A DNA stretch of 64,000 nt from Escherichia coli O157:H7 (GTDB lineage Bacteria > Pseudomonadota > Gammaproteobacteria > Enterobacterales > Enterobacteriaceae). A program made the position numbers. Positions 12,001-18,000 of the stretch are shown one piece after another. Position 1 is the first letter of the stretch; each line of letters opens with the position of its first letter. Where the stretch lies: the NCBI RefSeq assembly GCF_013167455.1, contig NZ_CP038328.1; one strand, 5' to 3'.

Positions 12001-15000
12001 ACGTGCGCTGCATGCGCAAAACCAGCCAACAGAAACCGCCAATGCCGGGCAGCGTATCGCGCTTAACATCGCGGGTGATGCGGAAAAAGAGCAGATTAAC
12101 CGTGGCGACTGGCTGCTTGCCGATGTGCCGCCAGAGCCGTTCACACGGGTGATTGTCGAGCTTCAAACCCATACACCGCTGACCCAGTGGCAGCCGCTGC
12201 ATATTCACCACGCCGCCAGCCACGTCACGGGACGCGTTTCACTGCTGGAAGATAACCTTGCTGAACTGGTCTTCGACCCCCCGTTATGGCTGGCAGATAA
12301 CGACCGCCTGGTATTGCGCGATATCTCTGCCCGCAACACGCTGGCCGGAGCGCGCGTCGTGATGCTTAACCCGCCGCGTCGCGGTAAACGTAAACCAGAG
12401 TATCTGCAATGCCTGGCTTCCCTCGCCAGGGCACAGAATGATAGCGAAGCGTTAGCCGTTCACCTGCAACGCGGCGCGGTTAATCTTCCTGATTTCGCCT
12501 GGGCGCGCCAGCTCAACGGCGAAGGGATGCGCGAACTGCTGCAACAGCCTGGCTATATTCAGGCTGGTTATAGCTTGTTGAATGCGCCGGTTGCCGCTCG
12601 CTGGCAACGGAAAATTCTCGACACATTAGCGACTTATCATGAGCAACATCGCGATGAACCTGGGCCTGGGCGCGAACGTCTGCGACGTATGGCGTTGCCA
12701 ATGGAAGATGAAGCGCTAGTACTGTTGCTGATTGAAAAGATGCGCGAAAGCGGCGACATCCTCAGTCATCACGGCTGGCTGCATCTGCCGGATCACAAAG
12801 CGGGCTTCAGCGAAGAGCAGCAGGCCATCTGGCAAAAAGCAGAGCCGCTGTTTGGTGACGAGCCGTGGTGGGTGCGTGATCTGGCAAAAGAGACGGGTAC
12901 CGACGAGCAGGCAATGCGCCTGACGCTACGCCAGGCGGCGCAGCAAGGAATAATTACCGCGATCGTCAAAGATCGTTATTACCGTAACGATCGGATTGTC
13001 GAATTTGCCAATATGATCCGCGATCTCGATCAGGAGTGTGGTTCAACCTGCGCGGCGGATTTCCGCGATCGCTTAGGCGTAGGCCGAAAGCTGGCAATTC
13101 AGATTCTGGAATATTTTGACCGCATTGGCTTTACGCGTCGTCGTGGAAATGATCATTTATTGCGCGACGCATTATTATTTCCGGAAAAATAAGGAAATGA
13201 TTAATTAATTTTTAAAATAAATTAATACAAATTTCTTATGATTTTAAAAAAGCACATTGTTTAATGAATACAATGTGCTTTTTATTAGATTAATTTTGAT
13301 AATTAATAATAATGATCATGTTTTCGAATGAAAATCCTCAGTAAGCTGCCCACCCTTTTTTACACTTTCAGGAGTGTGTTATGGCATCTTCAACTTTCTT
13401 TATTCCTTCTGTGAATGTCATCGGCGCTGATTCATTGACTGATGCAATGAATATGATGGCAGATTATGGATTTACCCGTACCTTAATTGTCACTGACAGT
13501 ATGTTAACGAAATTAGGTATGGCGGGCGATGTGCAAAAAGCACTGGAAGAACGCAATATTTTTAGCGTTATTTATGATGGCACCCAACCTAACCCCACCA
13601 CGGAAAACGTCGCCGCAGGTTTGAAATTACTTAAAGAGAATAATTGCGATAGCGTGATCTCCTTAGGCGGTGGTTCTCCACACGACTGCGCAAAAGGTAT
13701 TGCGCTGGTGGCAGCCAATGGCGGCGATATTCGCGATTACGAAGGCGTTGACCGCTCTGCAAAACCGCAGCTGCCGATGATCGCCATCAATACCACGGCG
13801 GGTACGGCCTCTGAAATGACCCGTTTCTGCATCATCACTGACGAAGCGCGTCATATCAAAATGGCGATTGTTGATAAACATGTCACTCCGCTGCTTTCTG
13901 TCAATGACTCCTCTCTGATGATTGGTATGCCGAAGTCACTGACCGCCGCAACGGGTATGGATGCCTTAACGCACGCTATCGAAGCGTATGTTTCTATTGC
14001 CGCCACGCCGATCACTGACGCTTGTGCACTGAAAGCCGTGACCATGATTGCCGAAAACCTGCCGTTAGCCGTTGAAGATGGCAGTAATGCGAAAGCGCGT
14101 GAAGCAATGGCTTATGCCCAGTTCCTCGCCGGTATGGCGTTCAATAATGCTTCTCTGGGTTATGTTCATGCGATGGCGCACCAGCTGGGCGGTTTCTACA
14201 ACCTGCCACACGGTGTATGTAACGCCGTTCTGCTGCCGCATGTTCAGGTATTCAACAGCAAAGTCGCCGCTGCACGTCTGCGTGACTGTGCCGCTGCAAT
14301 GGGCGTGAACGTGACAGGTAAAAACGACGCGGAAGGTGCTGAAGCCTGCATTAACGCCATCCGTGAACTGGCGAAGAAAGTGGATATCCCGGCAGGCCTA
14401 CGCGACCTGAACGTGAAAGAAGAAGATTTCGCGGTTCTGGCGGCTAATGCCCTGAAAGATGCCTGTGGCTTTACTAACCCGATCCAGGCAACTCACGAAG
14501 AAATTGTGGCGATTTATCGCGCAGCGATGTAATCATCATTTCCACAACGGCTGGCAAATTGTCAGCCATTTTTTCAACTATCTCAAAACTTGCTTTTTTT
14601 GAGATAGTTTCTCTTTCCTGCTATACACTATCTCAATATTGCGCTTTTTTGAGATAAGCAAATGGCTATCAAATCACCTCCCACGCTGATTCCTTTATCA
14701 CACTTATCGGGTGAGGAACTCCAGGCCCACCTGCGCTTTAACCGGGTTACCGATGAAAAAGGACGTTATCTGCCTTTTGATGAGTTGCAGTACCGCATCA
14801 AAAAAGGAGAAAACGTCGATGTGGCGTGGACGCTTACCCGTCTGGCGCGCAACGCGGCGATCCAACGAATTAATTATTGCAATGAAGCGGGTGAACAGGC
14901 CGGATTCAACATTACCCCGGTGATTGCAGAAGCGTGCGAGCTTGTCGACAAACGTGCTACCGCGCTGGCGCTGAAAGATCAGACTGAACGGTTACGCGGG

Positions 15001-18000
15001 GCCGGAGCCGAGTTAAGCCAGTTACGCCTGGAAGAGCCGATCACCAGCTCCCAGCTGGAAGGTGCGAATACTACAACGCTGGTGGCGAGAAAAATGCTGG
15101 AAACAGGACGGTCGCCACGCACTGAAGACGAGCATATGATTGCGGGAAATGCCCGGCTGATGGCGGAAATTCCGCACTTACTCGCAGAACCGCTGACACC
15201 TGCGCTTATTCGCCAGTTACATGCCATTGGTATGGGTGGAATCAATGACGCGAAATATCGTCCGGGAGAATTTCGTGAAACAGATGATGTTGTGATCGCC
15301 GACTATGATGGCAATATAGTGCATCAACCGCCCGCTGCGGCATTGTTACCGGAACGGCTGGAAAAAGTTTGCCAGTGGTTAAACAGCCATGAAGGGTATA
15401 TTCATCCGTTGGTCCGTGCCTGCATTCTGCATTTTATGCTGGCCCATGAACATCCGTTTCGGGATGGCAACGGGCGCACCAGTCGGGCGCTGTTTTACTG
15501 GTATATGCTGAAATCGGGCTACGATGTCTTTAAATATATTTCCATCAGCCGTTTGCTTCATGCTGCACCGGTCAAATATGCCGCCAGCTACCAGTACACT
15601 GAATCAGATGGTATGGATCTGACTTATTTCCTTGAATATCAGGCGGGTGTCATTAAACGTGCTCTGCAAAACTGGCAGCAGCATATCGATGAAATTACAC
15701 AACGAAGCGCAAAACTCGATAGTGTGCTGTTTAGCTCTGGTGTGCTTAAACGCCTGAATCCGCGCCAGGTAACGCTCCTGAATGTGATGCTCGCCAATCC
15801 GGGGAAAGAGTACACAGTTGCTGAAATTAGCGCGAGCCTGGGCGTCTCTGATAATACGGTTCGAGCTGATTTACGGACAATTGTTAAAGAAGGGTTTGCG
15901 CAAGAGAAGAAAATTAATGACCAGCAAGCCGTGTACTTCGCGCATTATCCGCTGTAACCCTTGCCCGTAAATTCGTGATAGCCGTCGAAAAGCTGTTACC
16001 GACTGGCGAAGATTTCGCCAGCCACGTCTACCCTTGTTATACCTCACACCGCAAGGAGACGATCATGACCAATAATCCCCCTTCAGCACAGATTAAGCCC
16101 GGCGAGTATGGTTTCCCCCTCAAGTTAAAAAACCGCTATGACAACTTTATTGGCGGCGAATGGGTAGCCCCTGCCGATGGTGAGTATTACCAGAACCTGA
16201 CGCCGGTGACCGGGCAGCTGCTGTGCGAAGTGGCGTCTTCGGGCAAACGAGACATCGATCTGGCGCTGGATGCTGCGCACAAAGTGAAAGATAAATGGGC
16301 GCACACCTCGGTGCAGGATCGCGCGGCGATTCTGTTTAAGATTGCCGATCGAATGGAACAAAACCTCGAGCTGTTAGCGACAGCTGAAGCCTGGGATAAC
16401 GGCAAACCCATTCGCGAAACCAGTGCTGCGGATGTACCGCTGGCGATTGACCATTTCCGCTATTTCGCCTCGTGTATTCGGGCGCAGGAAGGTGGGATCA
16501 GTGAAGTTGATAGCGAAACCGTGGCCTATCATTTCCATGAACCGTTAGGCGTGGTGGGGCAGATTATCCCGTGGAACTTCCCGCTGCTGATGGCGAGCTG
16601 GAAAATGGCTCCCGCGCTGGCGGCGGGCAACTGTGTGGTGCTGAAACCCGCACGTCTTACCCCGCTTTCTGTACTGCTGCTAATGGAAATCGTCGGTGAT
16701 TTACTGCCGCCGGGCGTGGTGAACGTGGTCAACGGTGCAGGTGGGGAAATTGGCGAATATCTGGCGACCTCGAAACGCATCGCCAAAGTGGCGTTTACCG
16801 GCTCAACGGAAGTGGGTCAACAAATTATGCAATACGCCACGCAAAACATTATTCCGGTGACGCTGGAGCTGGGCGGTAAGTCGCCAAATATCTTCTTTGC
16901 TGATGTGATGGATGAAGAAGATGCCTTTTTCGATAAAGCGCTGGAAGGCTTTGCACTGTTTGCCTTTAACCAGGGCGAAGTTTGCACCTGTCCGAGTCGT
17001 GCCTTAGTGCAGGAGTCAATCTACGAACGCTTTATGGAACGCGCCATCCGCCGTGTCGAAAGCATTCGCAGCGGTAACCCACTCGACAGCGTGACGCAAA
17101 TGGGTGCGCAGGTTTCTCACGGGCAACTGGAAACCATCCTCAACTACATTGATATCGGTAAAAAAGAGGGCGCTGATGTGCTCACCGGCGGGCGGCGCAA
17201 GCTGCTGGAAGGTGAACTGAAAGACGGCTACTACCTCGAACCGACGATTCTGTTTGGTCAGAACAATATGCGCGTGTTCCAGGAGGAGATTTTTGGCCCG
17301 GTGCTGGCGGTGACTACCTTCAAAACGATGGAAGAAGCGCTGGAGCTGGCGAACGATACGCAATATGGCCTGGGCGCGGGCGTCTGGAGCCGCAACGGTA
17401 ATCTGGCCTATAAGATGGGGCGCGGCATACAGGCTGGGCGCGTGTGGACCAACTGTTATCATGCTTACCCGGCACATGCGGCGTTTGGTGGCTACAAACA
17501 ATCAGGTATCGGTCGCGAAACCCACAAGATGATGCTGGAGCATTACCAGCAAACCAAGTGCCTGCTAGTGAGCTACTCAGATAAACCGTTGGGGCTGTTC
17601 TGATGTAAGAAGCTGGTCGCATCGGGTATTAATTGCCTGATGCGACGCTTACGCGTCTTATCATGCCTATGGGGACCTGACCGTAGGCCGGATAAGGCGT
17701 ACACGCCGCATCCGGCATAAACAAAGCGCACGTTGTTACAATTTACGTTTTAAACCTACGTGTGCAATAACCCAGACTACGCCAACAAAAGTGCGTTTCT
17801 GGGGCGTGTTTTGCCAGGAGTTTAATCTCGCGTTTCGATGGTGAGCGGGCAAACCAGACCGTAAATCACCATTGGTATTCCGAGGACAATCAGCAATAAA
17901 CGGTAGATTATTGAAGGTTTAATACGCTTAATCTGCATTGTGGATGTTTTACTGAAGTTATTCATTAGTTTGGCTGATAGTTCCATTATTTCAATATGAT

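What the first reader, a model, noticed from the sequence alone, without database searches (positions are those of the whole stretch)
14662..15957. Fic-family gene with canonical active site and inhibitory motif between yiaY and aldB
The 431 aa protein has the canonical catalytic motif HPFRDGNGRTSR and, upstream of the Fic core, an SxxxEG inhibitory-helix motif (SSQLEG). Its C-terminus looks like a winged-HTH DNA-binding domain. No adjacent antitoxin-sized ORF exists. It occupies an intergenic slot that is gene-free in the K-12 order as I recall it, so it looks like a strain-variable insertion with no flanking mobile-element genes or repeats. The target and physiological role of Fic enzymes of this type are largely unknown.
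Basis: partly seen in the sequence, partly recalled or inferred. Interest (0 to 1): 0.65.

Follow-up and report, generated by a model that had tools for sequence, protein, structure and literature searches.

The report
Self-repressing Fic AMP-transferase gene, lost from K-12
This is an intact, uncharacterised Fic protein-modifying enzyme fused to a DNA-binding domain that most likely switches off its own promoter; it is an old Escherichia gene that K-12 lost, not a recent insertion, and it belongs to a known kind of toxin-like enzyme.

Summary
[quoted passage not shown] There is no partner ORF, and K-12 has none of it.

1. There are repeats. Two perfect 28-bp palindromes, TATCTCAA-N12-TTGAGATA, sit at 14579-14606 and 14629-14656. 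They bracket a TTGAGA-17-TATACA promoter. The same layout accompanies homologues in unrelated genomic contexts. The half-site changes together with the recognition helix of the winged helix across phyla. I read them as autorepression operators, as shown experimentally for CccR and suggested for SoFic.

2. It is not a recent insertion. E. albertii has the gene at the same site with the same divergence as the flanks. dN/dS is 0.07. Both "empty" E. coli alleles, including K-12, keep operator scars. Of 5426 complete genomes, 1572 (29%) carry the gene.

The protein is a distinct subfamily. It has about 17-20% identity to the SoFic, CccR and CbFic2 structures. It carries an extra conserved 95-aa N-terminal domain with no confident structural match.

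Target, trigger and role (growth arrest or phage defence) remain unknown. Verdict: a new variant of a known kind, of moderate interest.

The parts
14549..14567 (+). yiaY intrinsic terminator (GGCTGGCAAATTGTCAGCC followed by a T-run). It marks the left boundary of the fic cassette and is present in fic-less genomes too.
   Evidence: Terminator scan; conserved in the BL21, K-12 and strain-315 spacers.
14579..14606 (.). Operator O1: perfect palindrome TATCTCAA-N12-TTGAGATA (extended arms 14576-14609). Its right arm supplies the -35 hexamer.
   Evidence: Exact match. The same element lies at about the same distance from the start codon in E. albertii, Salmonella ICE, Pseudescherichia and Pantoea loci, with different spacer sequence.
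14599..14627 (+). Putative sigma-70 promoter: -35 TTGAGA (14599-14604), 17-bp spacer, TG at 14619-14620, -10 TATACA (14622-14627).
   Evidence: Read from the sequence. Equivalent hexamers in homologous loci are TATACT, TATAAC and TATACA. The scanner did not list it because it requires T at -10 position 6.
14629..14656 (.). Operator O2: a second perfect palindrome TATCTCAA-N12-TTGAGATA. It starts 33 nt before the ATG and covers the predicted transcription start, the 5' UTR and the weak Shine-Dalgarno (GAGA).
   Evidence: Exact match. It lies at the same -33 position in all enterobacterial loci examined. It is 100% identical in divergent E. coli alleles and in E. albertii.
14662..15957 (+). fic CDS, 431 aa (RefSeq WP_000985752.1, 'Fic family protein').
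   Evidence: Under purifying selection: dN/dS 0.07 against E. albertii.
14662..14946 (+). N-terminal family-specific domain (aa 1-95; three helices plus a beta-hairpin). Y36, W56 and R63 are near-invariant. Function unknown.
15046..15063 (+). Inhibitory-helix motif S129-S-Q-L-E133-G134 (class II autoinhibition and deAMPylation glutamate).
   Evidence: Invariant in 38 of 38 homologues. Aligned to the FICD inhibitory Glu-Gly.
15451..15486 (+). Fic catalytic loop H264-PFRDGNGRTSR-275.
   Evidence: H, F, D, G, N, G, R and R are invariant.
15742..15954 (+). [quoted passage not shown] The recognition helix is around S396-D-N-T-V-R-A-D-L.
   Evidence: Pfam HTH hits. Model. Superposition on SoFic. N398 and T399 are invariant. 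The helix variant covaries with the operator half-site.
14585..15951 (.). The interval missing in K-12/BL21-type genomes (1367 bp). The junction reads CAACTATCTC|TGTAACCC, so the left half-site of O1 and the last 5 nt of fic remain.
   Evidence: 3204 of 5426 genomes carry this allele and 576 carry the longer scar allele.

Best explanation
The locus is a self-contained, single-gene, autorepressed class II Fic AMP-transferase cassette.

Protein domains:
- a family-specific N-terminal domain (aa 1-95);
- a Fic domain, whose active site (H264...R275) is obstructed in cis by Glu133 of the SSQLEG helix;
- a C-terminal winged helix.

Proposed mechanism (inferred, not shown):
- The protein acts as a dimer.
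- Its two winged helices bind the palindromes O1 and O2. The half-sites lie 20 bp centre to centre, and O1 and O2 are 50 bp apart.
- O1 overlaps the -35 hexamer. O2 covers the transcription start and the ribosome-binding site.
- The protein therefore represses its own synthesis and is held at a low level.
- When autoinhibition is relieved, the Fic domain transfers AMP from ATP to a hydroxyl side chain of an essential host protein. Relief would come from a change in oligomeric or DNA-bound state, or from a signal sensed by the N-terminal domain.
- By analogy with SoFic, CccR and FicT, the target could be a translation, division or topology factor such as EF-Tu, FtsZ or GyrB.
- The outcome would be reversible growth arrest. 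Phage-triggered abortive infection is the most likely, but unproven, setting.

History: in Escherichia the cassette is old. It was present at yiaY-aldB in the E. coli/E. albertii ancestor and has been deleted in about 70% of sequenced E. coli, including K-12.
For: Enzyme:
- Pfam Fic E=1.7e-19.
- The catalytic loop and SSQLEG are invariant in 38 homologues.
- The fold matches SoFic (TM about 0.7), CbFic2 and CccR.
- dN/dS in the Fic domain is 0.036.

Operators:
- Two exact palindromes, against 0.16 expected by chance.
- The same two-site layout and spacing occur in E. albertii, Salmonella ICE, Pseudescherichia and Pantoea, although the neighbouring genes differ and the spacer sequences differ.
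- A single start-proximal site occurs in Photorhabdus and in a Klebsiella satellite or prophage.
- 21 of 28 family loci have a significant inverted repeat within 130 nt upstream.
- The half-site covaries with the recognition helix:
  - SDNTAR goes with TATCTCAA.
  - AYNTAA goes with ATTTCAA.
  - Y[QE]TAR goes with TACTAA. There are 40 hexamers in 12 upstream regions, against 2.3 expected and a maximum of 8 in 500 shuffles.
  - YATAR goes with TATCAA.

Precedent:
- CccR represses its own promoter through an inverted repeat at the -35/-10 boxes.
- SoFic binds the 100 bp upstream of its own start codon, as a dimer only.
- CbFic2 activity is switched by DNA binding.

Single gene:
- No conserved neighbour across loci.

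Ancestry:
-.
Against: - Nothing here is biochemical. DNA binding, dimerisation, AMP transfer, toxicity and the target are all inferred.
- The palindromes could also form RNA hairpins. The terminator scan flags O1 as terminator-like.
- The -10 hexamer TATACA is imperfect, and the promoter scan did not list it.
- The protein is only 17-20% identical to the characterised Fic-wHTH proteins. It scores 39.9 bits against a 550-bit cut-off for the NCBIfam SoFic equivalog model. Transfer of target or role from those proteins is therefore weak.
- The E. coli copy lies between housekeeping genes, not in a defence island.
- One family locus (Xenorhabdus L100) shows no clear palindrome.
Confidence: 0.72

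Rival explanations
1. It is specifically an anti-phage abortive-infection gene of the SoFic type. Phage infection would relieve autoinhibition, and AMPylation of a host factor would kill or arrest the cell before phage release.
For: - The PADLOC SoFic model matches at E=2.4e-43 over residues 96-428.
- SoFic from E. coli H397 was validated as a single-gene defence system and is toxic.
- Homologues sit in an ICE, beside AbiEi, beside ParE/Phd and HicAB modules, and inside a P4-like satellite or prophage region with tail-fibre genes.
- A PHROG family matches at 3e-54.
- A few members lie on viral contigs.
Against: - The validated EcSoFic is a different, shorter subfamily. Its N-terminus shows no similarity. 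The NCBIfam equivalog model is not met.
- EcSoFic was reported to need a 47-aa antitoxin, AS1. Nothing comparable is present here.
- The Escherichia copy has been vertically inherited between core metabolic genes since before the E. albertii split. That is unusual for fast-turnover defence genes.
- The family is almost absent from cultured phage genomes.
Confidence: 0.35
2. It is mainly a transcription factor. The Fic domain would serve as a sensor or regulatory module, or as a constitutive deAMPylase, and the protein would control its own gene and other genes without being a toxin.
For: - The winged helix and operators are conserved.
- SoFic is constitutively a deAMPylase, and wild-type SoFic is not toxic on expression.
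- Stable vertical inheritance argues against a strongly selfish toxin.
Against: - Only the two operators at its own promoter occur in the 64-kb window. The one 3-mismatch hit, at 36868, lacks the right arm.
- Every catalytic residue needed for AMP transfer is invariant, and the Fic domain is the most constrained part (omega 0.036).
Confidence: 0.2
3. The palindromes act at the RNA level and are not protein operators. O1 would be a second terminator for yiaY, and O2 a 5'-UTR hairpin masking the ribosome-binding site.
For: - O1 is scored as terminator-like, with 13 pairs followed by a T-rich tail.
- The right arm of O2 overlaps the only Shine-Dalgarno-like bases.
- Arms change on both sides in different clades, which also fits a hairpin.
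Against: - O1 accompanies fic in loci without yiaY and lies upstream of the predicted -10, so it is outside the fic transcript.
- The 12-nt spacer is constant while its sequence varies freely.
- The half-site sequence tracks the recognition-helix sequence of the protein. An RNA hairpin gives no reason for that.
- No Rfam match.
- There is experimental precedent for DNA binding in CccR and SoFic.
Confidence: 0.1
4. One reading: a recently acquired accessory gene inserted into a previously empty yiaY-aldB spacer.
For: - Presence and absence vary among E. coli: 29% carry it.
- Homologues are mobile elsewhere, in an ICE, on plasmids and in a satellite.
Against: - E. albertii has the same site with flank-like divergence.
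- E. coli alleles differ by 2-3%, like the core genome, and always occupy the one site.
- The 'empty' alleles carry operator remnants, and those operators belong to the cassette in other genera.
- There are no integrase, transposase or target duplications.
Confidence: 0.08

Closest known systems
SoFic (Shewanella oneidensis SO_4266/MloA; PDB 3EQX, 3ZCN)
   Same: - Class II Fic with an N-terminal inhibitory SxxxEG helix and a C-terminal wHTH.
- Best structural match to the model (TM about 0.68-0.72).
- A dimer that binds its own promoter region.
- No partner gene.
   Different: - 17-18% identity. NCBIfam equivalog score is 39.9 against a cut-off of 550.
- SoFic lacks the 95-aa N-terminal domain.
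- The SoFic operator has not been mapped.
- The SoFic target EF-Tu cannot be assumed here.
CccR (Yersinia pseudotuberculosis; PDB 7XUX)
   Same: - Class II Fic plus wHTH.
- Experimentally shown to repress its own promoter as a dimer, through an inverted repeat overlapping the -35/-10 boxes.
- Toxic through AMPylation (of FtsZ).
   Different: - 380 aa, without the N-terminal extension. About 18% identity.
- One operator, AGATAATCAT-N26-ATGATAATCT, against two TATCTCAA-N12-TTGAGATA sites here.
- CccR is a T6SS-secreted effector. There is no secretion-system context here.
EcSoFic, the 'SoFic' anti-phage defence system (E. coli H397; Millman et al. 2022; Wu et al. 2025)
   Same: - A single Fic-wHTH gene in E. 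coli.
- The PADLOC SoFic model hits this protein at E=2.4e-43, so defence-finder tools would probably label it SoFic.
   Different: - A different subfamily: catalytic His194 against His264, and an unrelated N-terminus.
- EcSoFic has a reported downstream 47-aa antitoxin, AS1. None is present here.
- Defence has not been tested for this subfamily.
CbFic2 (Coxiella burnetii CBU_0822; PDB 8CIL)
   Same: - Fic plus HTH, bifunctional AMPylase/deAMPylase.
- Its activity is switched by DNA-binding-induced dimerisation.
- Second-best structural match.
   Different: - Works on host histone H3 as a presumed effector.
- 20% identity.
- No N-terminal extension.
Class I FicTA modules (VbhT/VbhA, EcFicT/EcFicA, Fic-1/AntF)
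   Same: - The same catalytic chemistry.
- The same logic of a toxin held in check by an inhibitory glutamate.
- Promoter autoregulation, as is usual for type II TA modules.
   Different: - In class I the inhibitory helix and the DNA-binding function lie on a separate antitoxin.
- Here both are fused into the enzyme polypeptide and no second gene exists.

Membership tests
Fic/Fido superfamily (Pfam PF02661) | Profile match and catalytic motif HxFx(D/E)GNGRxxR | tested here: met
   PF02661 E=1.7e-19. H264-PFRDGNGRTSR-275 is read directly from the sequence and is invariant in homologues.
Class II Fic proteins (Engel et al. 2012 classification) | Inhibitory motif (S/T)xxxE(G/N) on the same chain, N-terminal to the Fic core | tested here: met
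   S129-SQLEG-134 lies 130 residues before H264. It is aligned by HMMER to the FICD inhibitory Glu-Gly and is invariant.
Class II Fic proteins (Engel et al. 2012 classification) | The glutamate actually obstructs ATP gamma-phosphate binding, so that an E-to-G mutant gains activity | not testable with these tools
   Needs an enzyme assay or a structure with nucleotide.
[quoted passage not shown]
   The model shows three helices plus a two-strand wing at 367-427. About 350 columns align to SoFic, including the C-terminal domain. HTH_DeoR 8e-4. SoFic-like_C PF21248 hits 3 to 13 of 38 family members.
SoFic proper (NCBIfam NF046030 equivalog) | Whole-protein score at or above the curated cut-off (550 bits) | tested here: not met
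   39.9 bits. It should not be filed as a SoFic orthologue.
SoFic anti-phage defence system (PADLOC / DefenseFinder sense) | Match to the system's HMM | tested here: met
   PDLC03963 E=2.4e-43, residues 96-428 onto model positions 30-351 of 361.
SoFic anti-phage defence system (PADLOC / DefenseFinder sense) | Confers phage resistance | not testable with these tools
   Only the distant EcSoFic from strain H397 was tested.
CccR-like autoregulated Fic toxins | Palindromic operator overlapping its own -35/-10, bound by the wHTH dimer | tested here: inconclusive
   The cis elements are present and conserved, and they covary with the recognition helix. Binding and repression were not measured.
CccR-like autoregulated Fic toxins | Secretion by a T6SS and uptake through FhuA | not tested
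   No T6SS genes lie in the annotated neighbourhood. The rest of the genome was not examined.
Class I FicTA toxin-antitoxin module | Adjacent small antitoxin gene supplying the inhibitory helix | tested here: not met
   There is no conserved adjacent ORF in E. coli or in eight other loci. VbhT and Doc models score only marginally.

The most novel reading that the evidence does not exclude
The N-terminally extended Fic-wHTH proteins may be a large, unstudied family of single-chain toxin-antitoxin or abortive-infection cassettes. The family has about 580 clusters at 50% identity and spans Bacteria and Archaea.
- Toxin, inhibitory antitoxin helix and autorepressor DNA-binding domain would be fused in one polypeptide.
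- Each cassette would carry its own matched operator wherever it moves.
- The conserved 95-aa N-terminal domain, with no confident structural match, would be the trigger sensor, for example for a phage protein.
- The Escherichia copy would be a domesticated member that reversibly AMPylates a core factor such as EF-Tu to control growth.
Probability: 0.2. Interest if true: 0.65.

Novelty: new variant of a known kind. Interest (0 to 1): 0.42.

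Why it matters
**What is at stake**
- About 29% of sequenced E. coli carry an intact, strongly conserved Fic AMP-transferase that the K-12 laboratory model lacks. Carriers include O157:H7 and other STEC-like strains. K-12's absence may be why the gene appears unstudied in the papers searched.
- Relatives of the same architecture block translation (EF-Tu), block division (FtsZ) or defend against phage. This gene could therefore affect growth arrest, persistence or phage sensitivity in pathogenic lineages.

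**What the comparison provides**
- A precise, directly testable regulatory model: two mapped operators, a promoter, and a recognition-helix/half-site code that holds across phyla.
- A conserved N-terminal domain with no confident structural match, which is the obvious candidate for the unknown activating signal of class II Fic enzymes.

**A practical point**
- K-12's 'empty' spacer is a deletion scar. That bears on how the aldB upstream region is interpreted.

Tried and rejected
1. Operator in viral contigs. I scanned IMG/VR for the exact operator pattern and found 15 hits. None lies near a fic homologue. The number is about what I estimate chance would give for 16 specified bases in a collection of that size, so the scan is uninformative.

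2. Genome-contig scan with the family alignment. It was useless for synteny but useful for operator covariation. Close relatives were reached through the look-up of encoding contigs instead.

4. Rfam search of 14400-16100 at E<=1. Nothing was found.

5. Promoter scanner. It did not report the TTGAGA-17-TATACA promoter because of its rule for -10 position 6. The promoter call rests on reading the sequence and on conservation.

6. An AS1-like antitoxin downstream, as reported for EcSoFic. Rejected: the 107-nt fic-aldB spacer is shared with K-12, and the neighbours differ in every other locus.

7. Filing the gene as SoFic. Rejected because the equivalog score fails and the N-terminus is unrelated to the validated EcSoFic.

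8. Literature searches for this locus. No study was found within the held library.

9. Supplement table of Millman et al. The stored sequences are truncated, so only the first 87 residues of EcSoFic could be compared.

Full report
**1. Observation**

- Window 14662-15957 (+) is an ATG-initiated ORF of 431 codons.
- RefSeq annotates the identical sequence in strain 2017C-4109 as 'Fic family protein' WP_000985752.1, between yiaY and aldB.
- The N-terminus MAIKSPP matches the conserved M-x-I-K-x-P-P start of homologues.
- Pfam Fic matches residues 177-281 at E=1.7e-19.
- The catalytic loop is H264-PFRDGNGRTSR-275 (nt 15451-15486).
- The motif S129-SQLEG-134 (nt 15046-15063) lies 130 residues upstream. 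HMMER aligns it with the inhibitory Glu-Gly of human FICD.
- In an alignment of 38 homologues down to 40% identity, all these residues are invariant.
- The C-terminus gives only weak HTH hits (HTH_DeoR 8e-4).
- An AlphaFold model (pLDDT 88.1, pTM 0.83) shows a three-helix, two-strand winged helix at 367-427.
- Foldseek places the whole model closest to SoFic (3ZCN/3EQX, TM about 0.68-0.72). CbFic2 (8CIL), 4RGL, 7CB8 and CccR (7XUX) follow, all at 17-20% identity.

**2.

- The 129-nt yiaY-fic spacer contains the yiaY terminator (14549-14567).
- After it come two perfect palindromes, TATCTCAA-N12-TTGAGATA, at 14579-14606 (O1) and 14629-14656 (O2).
- These are the only exact matches in 64 kb. Only 0.16 matches are expected by chance, even allowing three mismatches.
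- The right arm of O1 is a -35-like TTGAGA (14599-14604).
- A 17-bp spacer follows. At its 3' end sit the TG of an extended -10 (14619-14620) and then TATACA (14622-14627).
- O2 then fills the space from the predicted start site to 5 nt before the ATG, including the only Shine-Dalgarno-like bases.
- The generic promoter scan did not list this promoter, because it demands T at the last -10 position. The promoter is my reading of the sequence, supported by conservation.

**3. The operators belong to the gene, not to the site**

Full-length homologues at 60-76% identity lie in quite different places:

| Organism | Context |
|---|---|
| Salmonella | integrative conjugative element (AcaB, DUF3158, DUF2859, TrwB neighbours) |
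| Pseudescherichia | between a VF530 gene and a NIT/ANTAR regulator |
| Pantoea | near AbiEi |
| Photorhabdus | next to ParE/Phd and HicAB modules |
| Klebsiella | in a P4-like satellite or prophage region |
| Pseudomonas syringae | in the chromosome |

- No neighbouring gene is shared among these loci.
- Even so, the Salmonella, Pseudescherichia and Pantoea loci have the same two palindromes. O2 starts 33 nt before the ATG, O1 lies 49-51 bp further upstream, and a TATACT/TATAAC hexamer sits between them. The 12-nt spacers differ in sequence.
- Photorhabdus and Klebsiella keep only the start-proximal site.
- P. syringae has two sites with an altered half-site, (T/C)ATTTCAA-N12-TTGAAAT(A/G).
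- Across 28 family loci, 21 have an inverted repeat within 130 nt upstream that is significant against shuffles.

**4. Covariation with the recognition helix**

The predicted recognition helix reads as follows, with the matching half-site:

| Recognition helix | Half-site | Loci |
|---|---|---|
| S-D-N-T-A/V-R | TATCTCAA | enterobacterial clade |
| A-Y-N-T-A-A | ATTTCAA | P. syringae and two viral contigs |
| Y-(Q/E)-T-A-R | TACTAA | twelve distant loci, from Nitrospirae to methanogenic archaea |
| Y-A-T-A-R | TATCAA | two loci |

- For the Y-(Q/E)-T-A-R group, TACTAA/TTAGTA occurs 40 times in twelve 130-nt upstream regions. Shuffles give 2.3 on average and at most 8 in 500 trials.
- A protein-DNA code of this kind is what a cognate operator predicts. 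An RNA hairpin does not predict it.
- No Rfam family matches the region.

**5. Precedent**

- CccR of Yersinia pseudotuberculosis (class II Fic plus HTH, 380 aa) was shown by reporter fusions, EMSA, footprinting and ITC to repress its own promoter as a dimer. It acts through AGATAATCAT-N26-ATGATAATCT at the -35/-10 boxes. Its Fic domain AMPylates FtsZ (PMC9755527).
- SoFic dimers bind the 100 bp upstream of their own start codon. SoFic AMPylates and deAMPylates the switch-I region of EF-Tu (bioRxiv 10.64898/2026.07.09.737422).
- CbFic2 switches between AMPylase and deAMPylase on DNA-induced dimerisation (PMC10628234).
- A SoFic homologue from E. coli H397 is a single-gene anti-phage system (bioRxiv 10.1101/2022.05.11.491447). 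It is toxic and has a reported 47-aa antitoxin downstream (PMC12249575).

**6. How this protein differs**

- It scores 39.9 bits against a 550-bit cut-off for the NCBIfam SoFic equivalog model.
- The N-terminus of the validated EcSoFic is unrelated to it.
- The broader PADLOC SoFic model matches at 2.4e-43, so automated defence annotation would probably call it SoFic.
- It has an extra N-terminal domain (aa 1-95; three helices and a hairpin) that is conserved throughout the family. Y36, W56 and R63 are near-invariant even at under 25% identity.
- The family is large. An exhaustive search finds 581 clusters at 50% identity with E<1e-30, mostly 430-460 aa and covering the N-terminal domain.
- It occurs on 16 plasmids (Vibrio, Aeromonas, Klebsiella, Rahnella), on a few viral contigs, and hardly at all in cultured phages.

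**7. History in Escherichia**

The 5426 complete E. coli genomes fall into three alleles at this site:

| Allele | Genomes |
|---|---|
| fic present (always this one chromosomal site, 97-100% identity) | 1572 |
| 164-bp spacer of K-12 and BL21 | 3204 |
| 200-bp spacer of strain 315 | 576 |

- The K-12 spacer reads ...CAACTATCTC|TGTAACCC.... This is the left half-site of O1 joined to the last five bases of fic.
- The 200-bp allele keeps a whole, slightly degenerate palindrome plus TTATCTC|TGTAA.
- Since these motifs travel with fic in other genera, the gene-free alleles are deletion derivatives.
- E. albertii has fic at the same selB-yiaY-fic-aldB position, with both operators.
- Its nucleotide identity to the window is 92.1%, against 89.8% for yiaY and 92.3% for aldB.
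- dN/dS is 0.072 overall: 0.11 for the N-terminal domain, 0.036 for the Fic domain and 0.14 for the wHTH.
- The gene is therefore ancestral, functional where it is kept, and lost in most lineages. The 'insertion' reading is not supported.
- The exact order of the deletions is not resolved. Both share the right end-point, which suggests either two steps (fic to the 200-bp scar, then to the 164-bp scar by slippage between TATCTC repeats) or a recombination-prone half-site.

**8. Mechanism proposed, and its status**

Shown by sequence and comparison:
- an intact class II Fic active site;
- a fused winged helix;
- two conserved palindromes bracketing the promoter;
- covariation of helix and operator;
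- no partner gene;
- purifying selection;
- vertical inheritance with loss.

Inferred from characterised relatives:
- dimerisation;
- autorepression through O1 and O2;
- AMP transfer to an essential protein, leading to growth arrest;
- possible switching between AMPylation and deAMPylation with the DNA-bound or oligomeric state.

Unknown:
- the target;
- the trigger;
- the role of the N-terminal domain;
- whether the physiological role is phage defence. Homologue contexts are suggestive, but the Escherichia context is not.

**9. Verdict**

- This is a real and correctly described gene.
- It is a new, N-terminally extended variant of the known Fic-wHTH class, with a now well-defined candidate autoregulatory circuit.
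- It is ordinary in kind, and a reasonable experimental target because it is common in pathogenic E. coli and missing from K-12.
- Interest is moderate.

Noticed in passing
window 14585-15951; L197 (K-12 MG1655) 3013-3176: K-12's yiaY-aldB spacer is a deletion scar, CAACTATCTC|TGTAACCC. The aldB upstream region in K-12 therefore abuts a remnant operator half-site and the yiaY terminator. The effect on aldB regulation was not examined.
   Followed up: partly
L097 (strain WP4-S18-ESBL-07) about 340-375 versus L002 (strain 315) about 2460-2495: In the 200-bp scar allele the remnant palindrome reads ACTCTCTCAAAA...TTTTGAGAGAGT in one strain, with both arms changed so that it is again perfect. In the other strain it reads ACTATCTC...GAGAGAGT. 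This may be chance, gene conversion, or retained function as a hairpin.
   Followed up: no
L002 4427-5039 (strain 315): Directly after aldB this strain has a hicA/hicB toxin-antitoxin pair and then the GH127 gene. It lacks yiaW-yiaV-yiaU-yiaT, which are present in the window. This is a second variable spot next to the fic site.
   Followed up: no
window about 21578-26142: The annotation shows an AraC-family regulator, an MFS transporter and a GH127 glycoside hydrolase, plus a truncated IclR-family pseudogene. As I recall (not checked), K-12 carries the yiaJ-sgbE cluster at this position, so this is another strain-specific replacement.
   Followed up: no
window about 45719-46932: An IS1203 (IS3-family) transposase with a programmed frameshift is inserted beside hokA. 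IS1203 is, from my own knowledge (not checked here), typical of STEC lineages, which would suit a STEC-like strain; the fic query region (window 14533-16064) is 100% identical to strain 2017C-4109.
   Followed up: no
window about 3179-9025: An RHS element core protein is followed by yibG, an RHS C-terminal fragment pseudogene and a frameshifted Imm57 immunity gene. This looks like an orphan toxin-tip/immunity array.
   Followed up: no
L100 4001-7216 (Xenorhabdus khoisanae): Two Fic-HTH genes lie 840 bp apart on opposite strands: a 454-aa member of this family and a 336-aa short type. This is the one family locus without a clear upstream palindrome.
   Followed up: no
L019, L025, L030 (Methanomicrobiaceae, Methanoregula, Methanoperedens MAGs): Archaeal homologues carry the same Y(Q/E)TAR recognition helix and TACTAA-type palindromes as bacterial ones from several phyla. 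This implies inter-domain transfer of gene and operator as a unit.
   Followed up: partly
window 17573-17731: The aldB-yiaW spacer contains REP-like sequence. The spurious ORF there translates as ...CGVYALSGLR..., a pattern I recall (not checked) as typical of REP/BIME elements.
   Followed up: no
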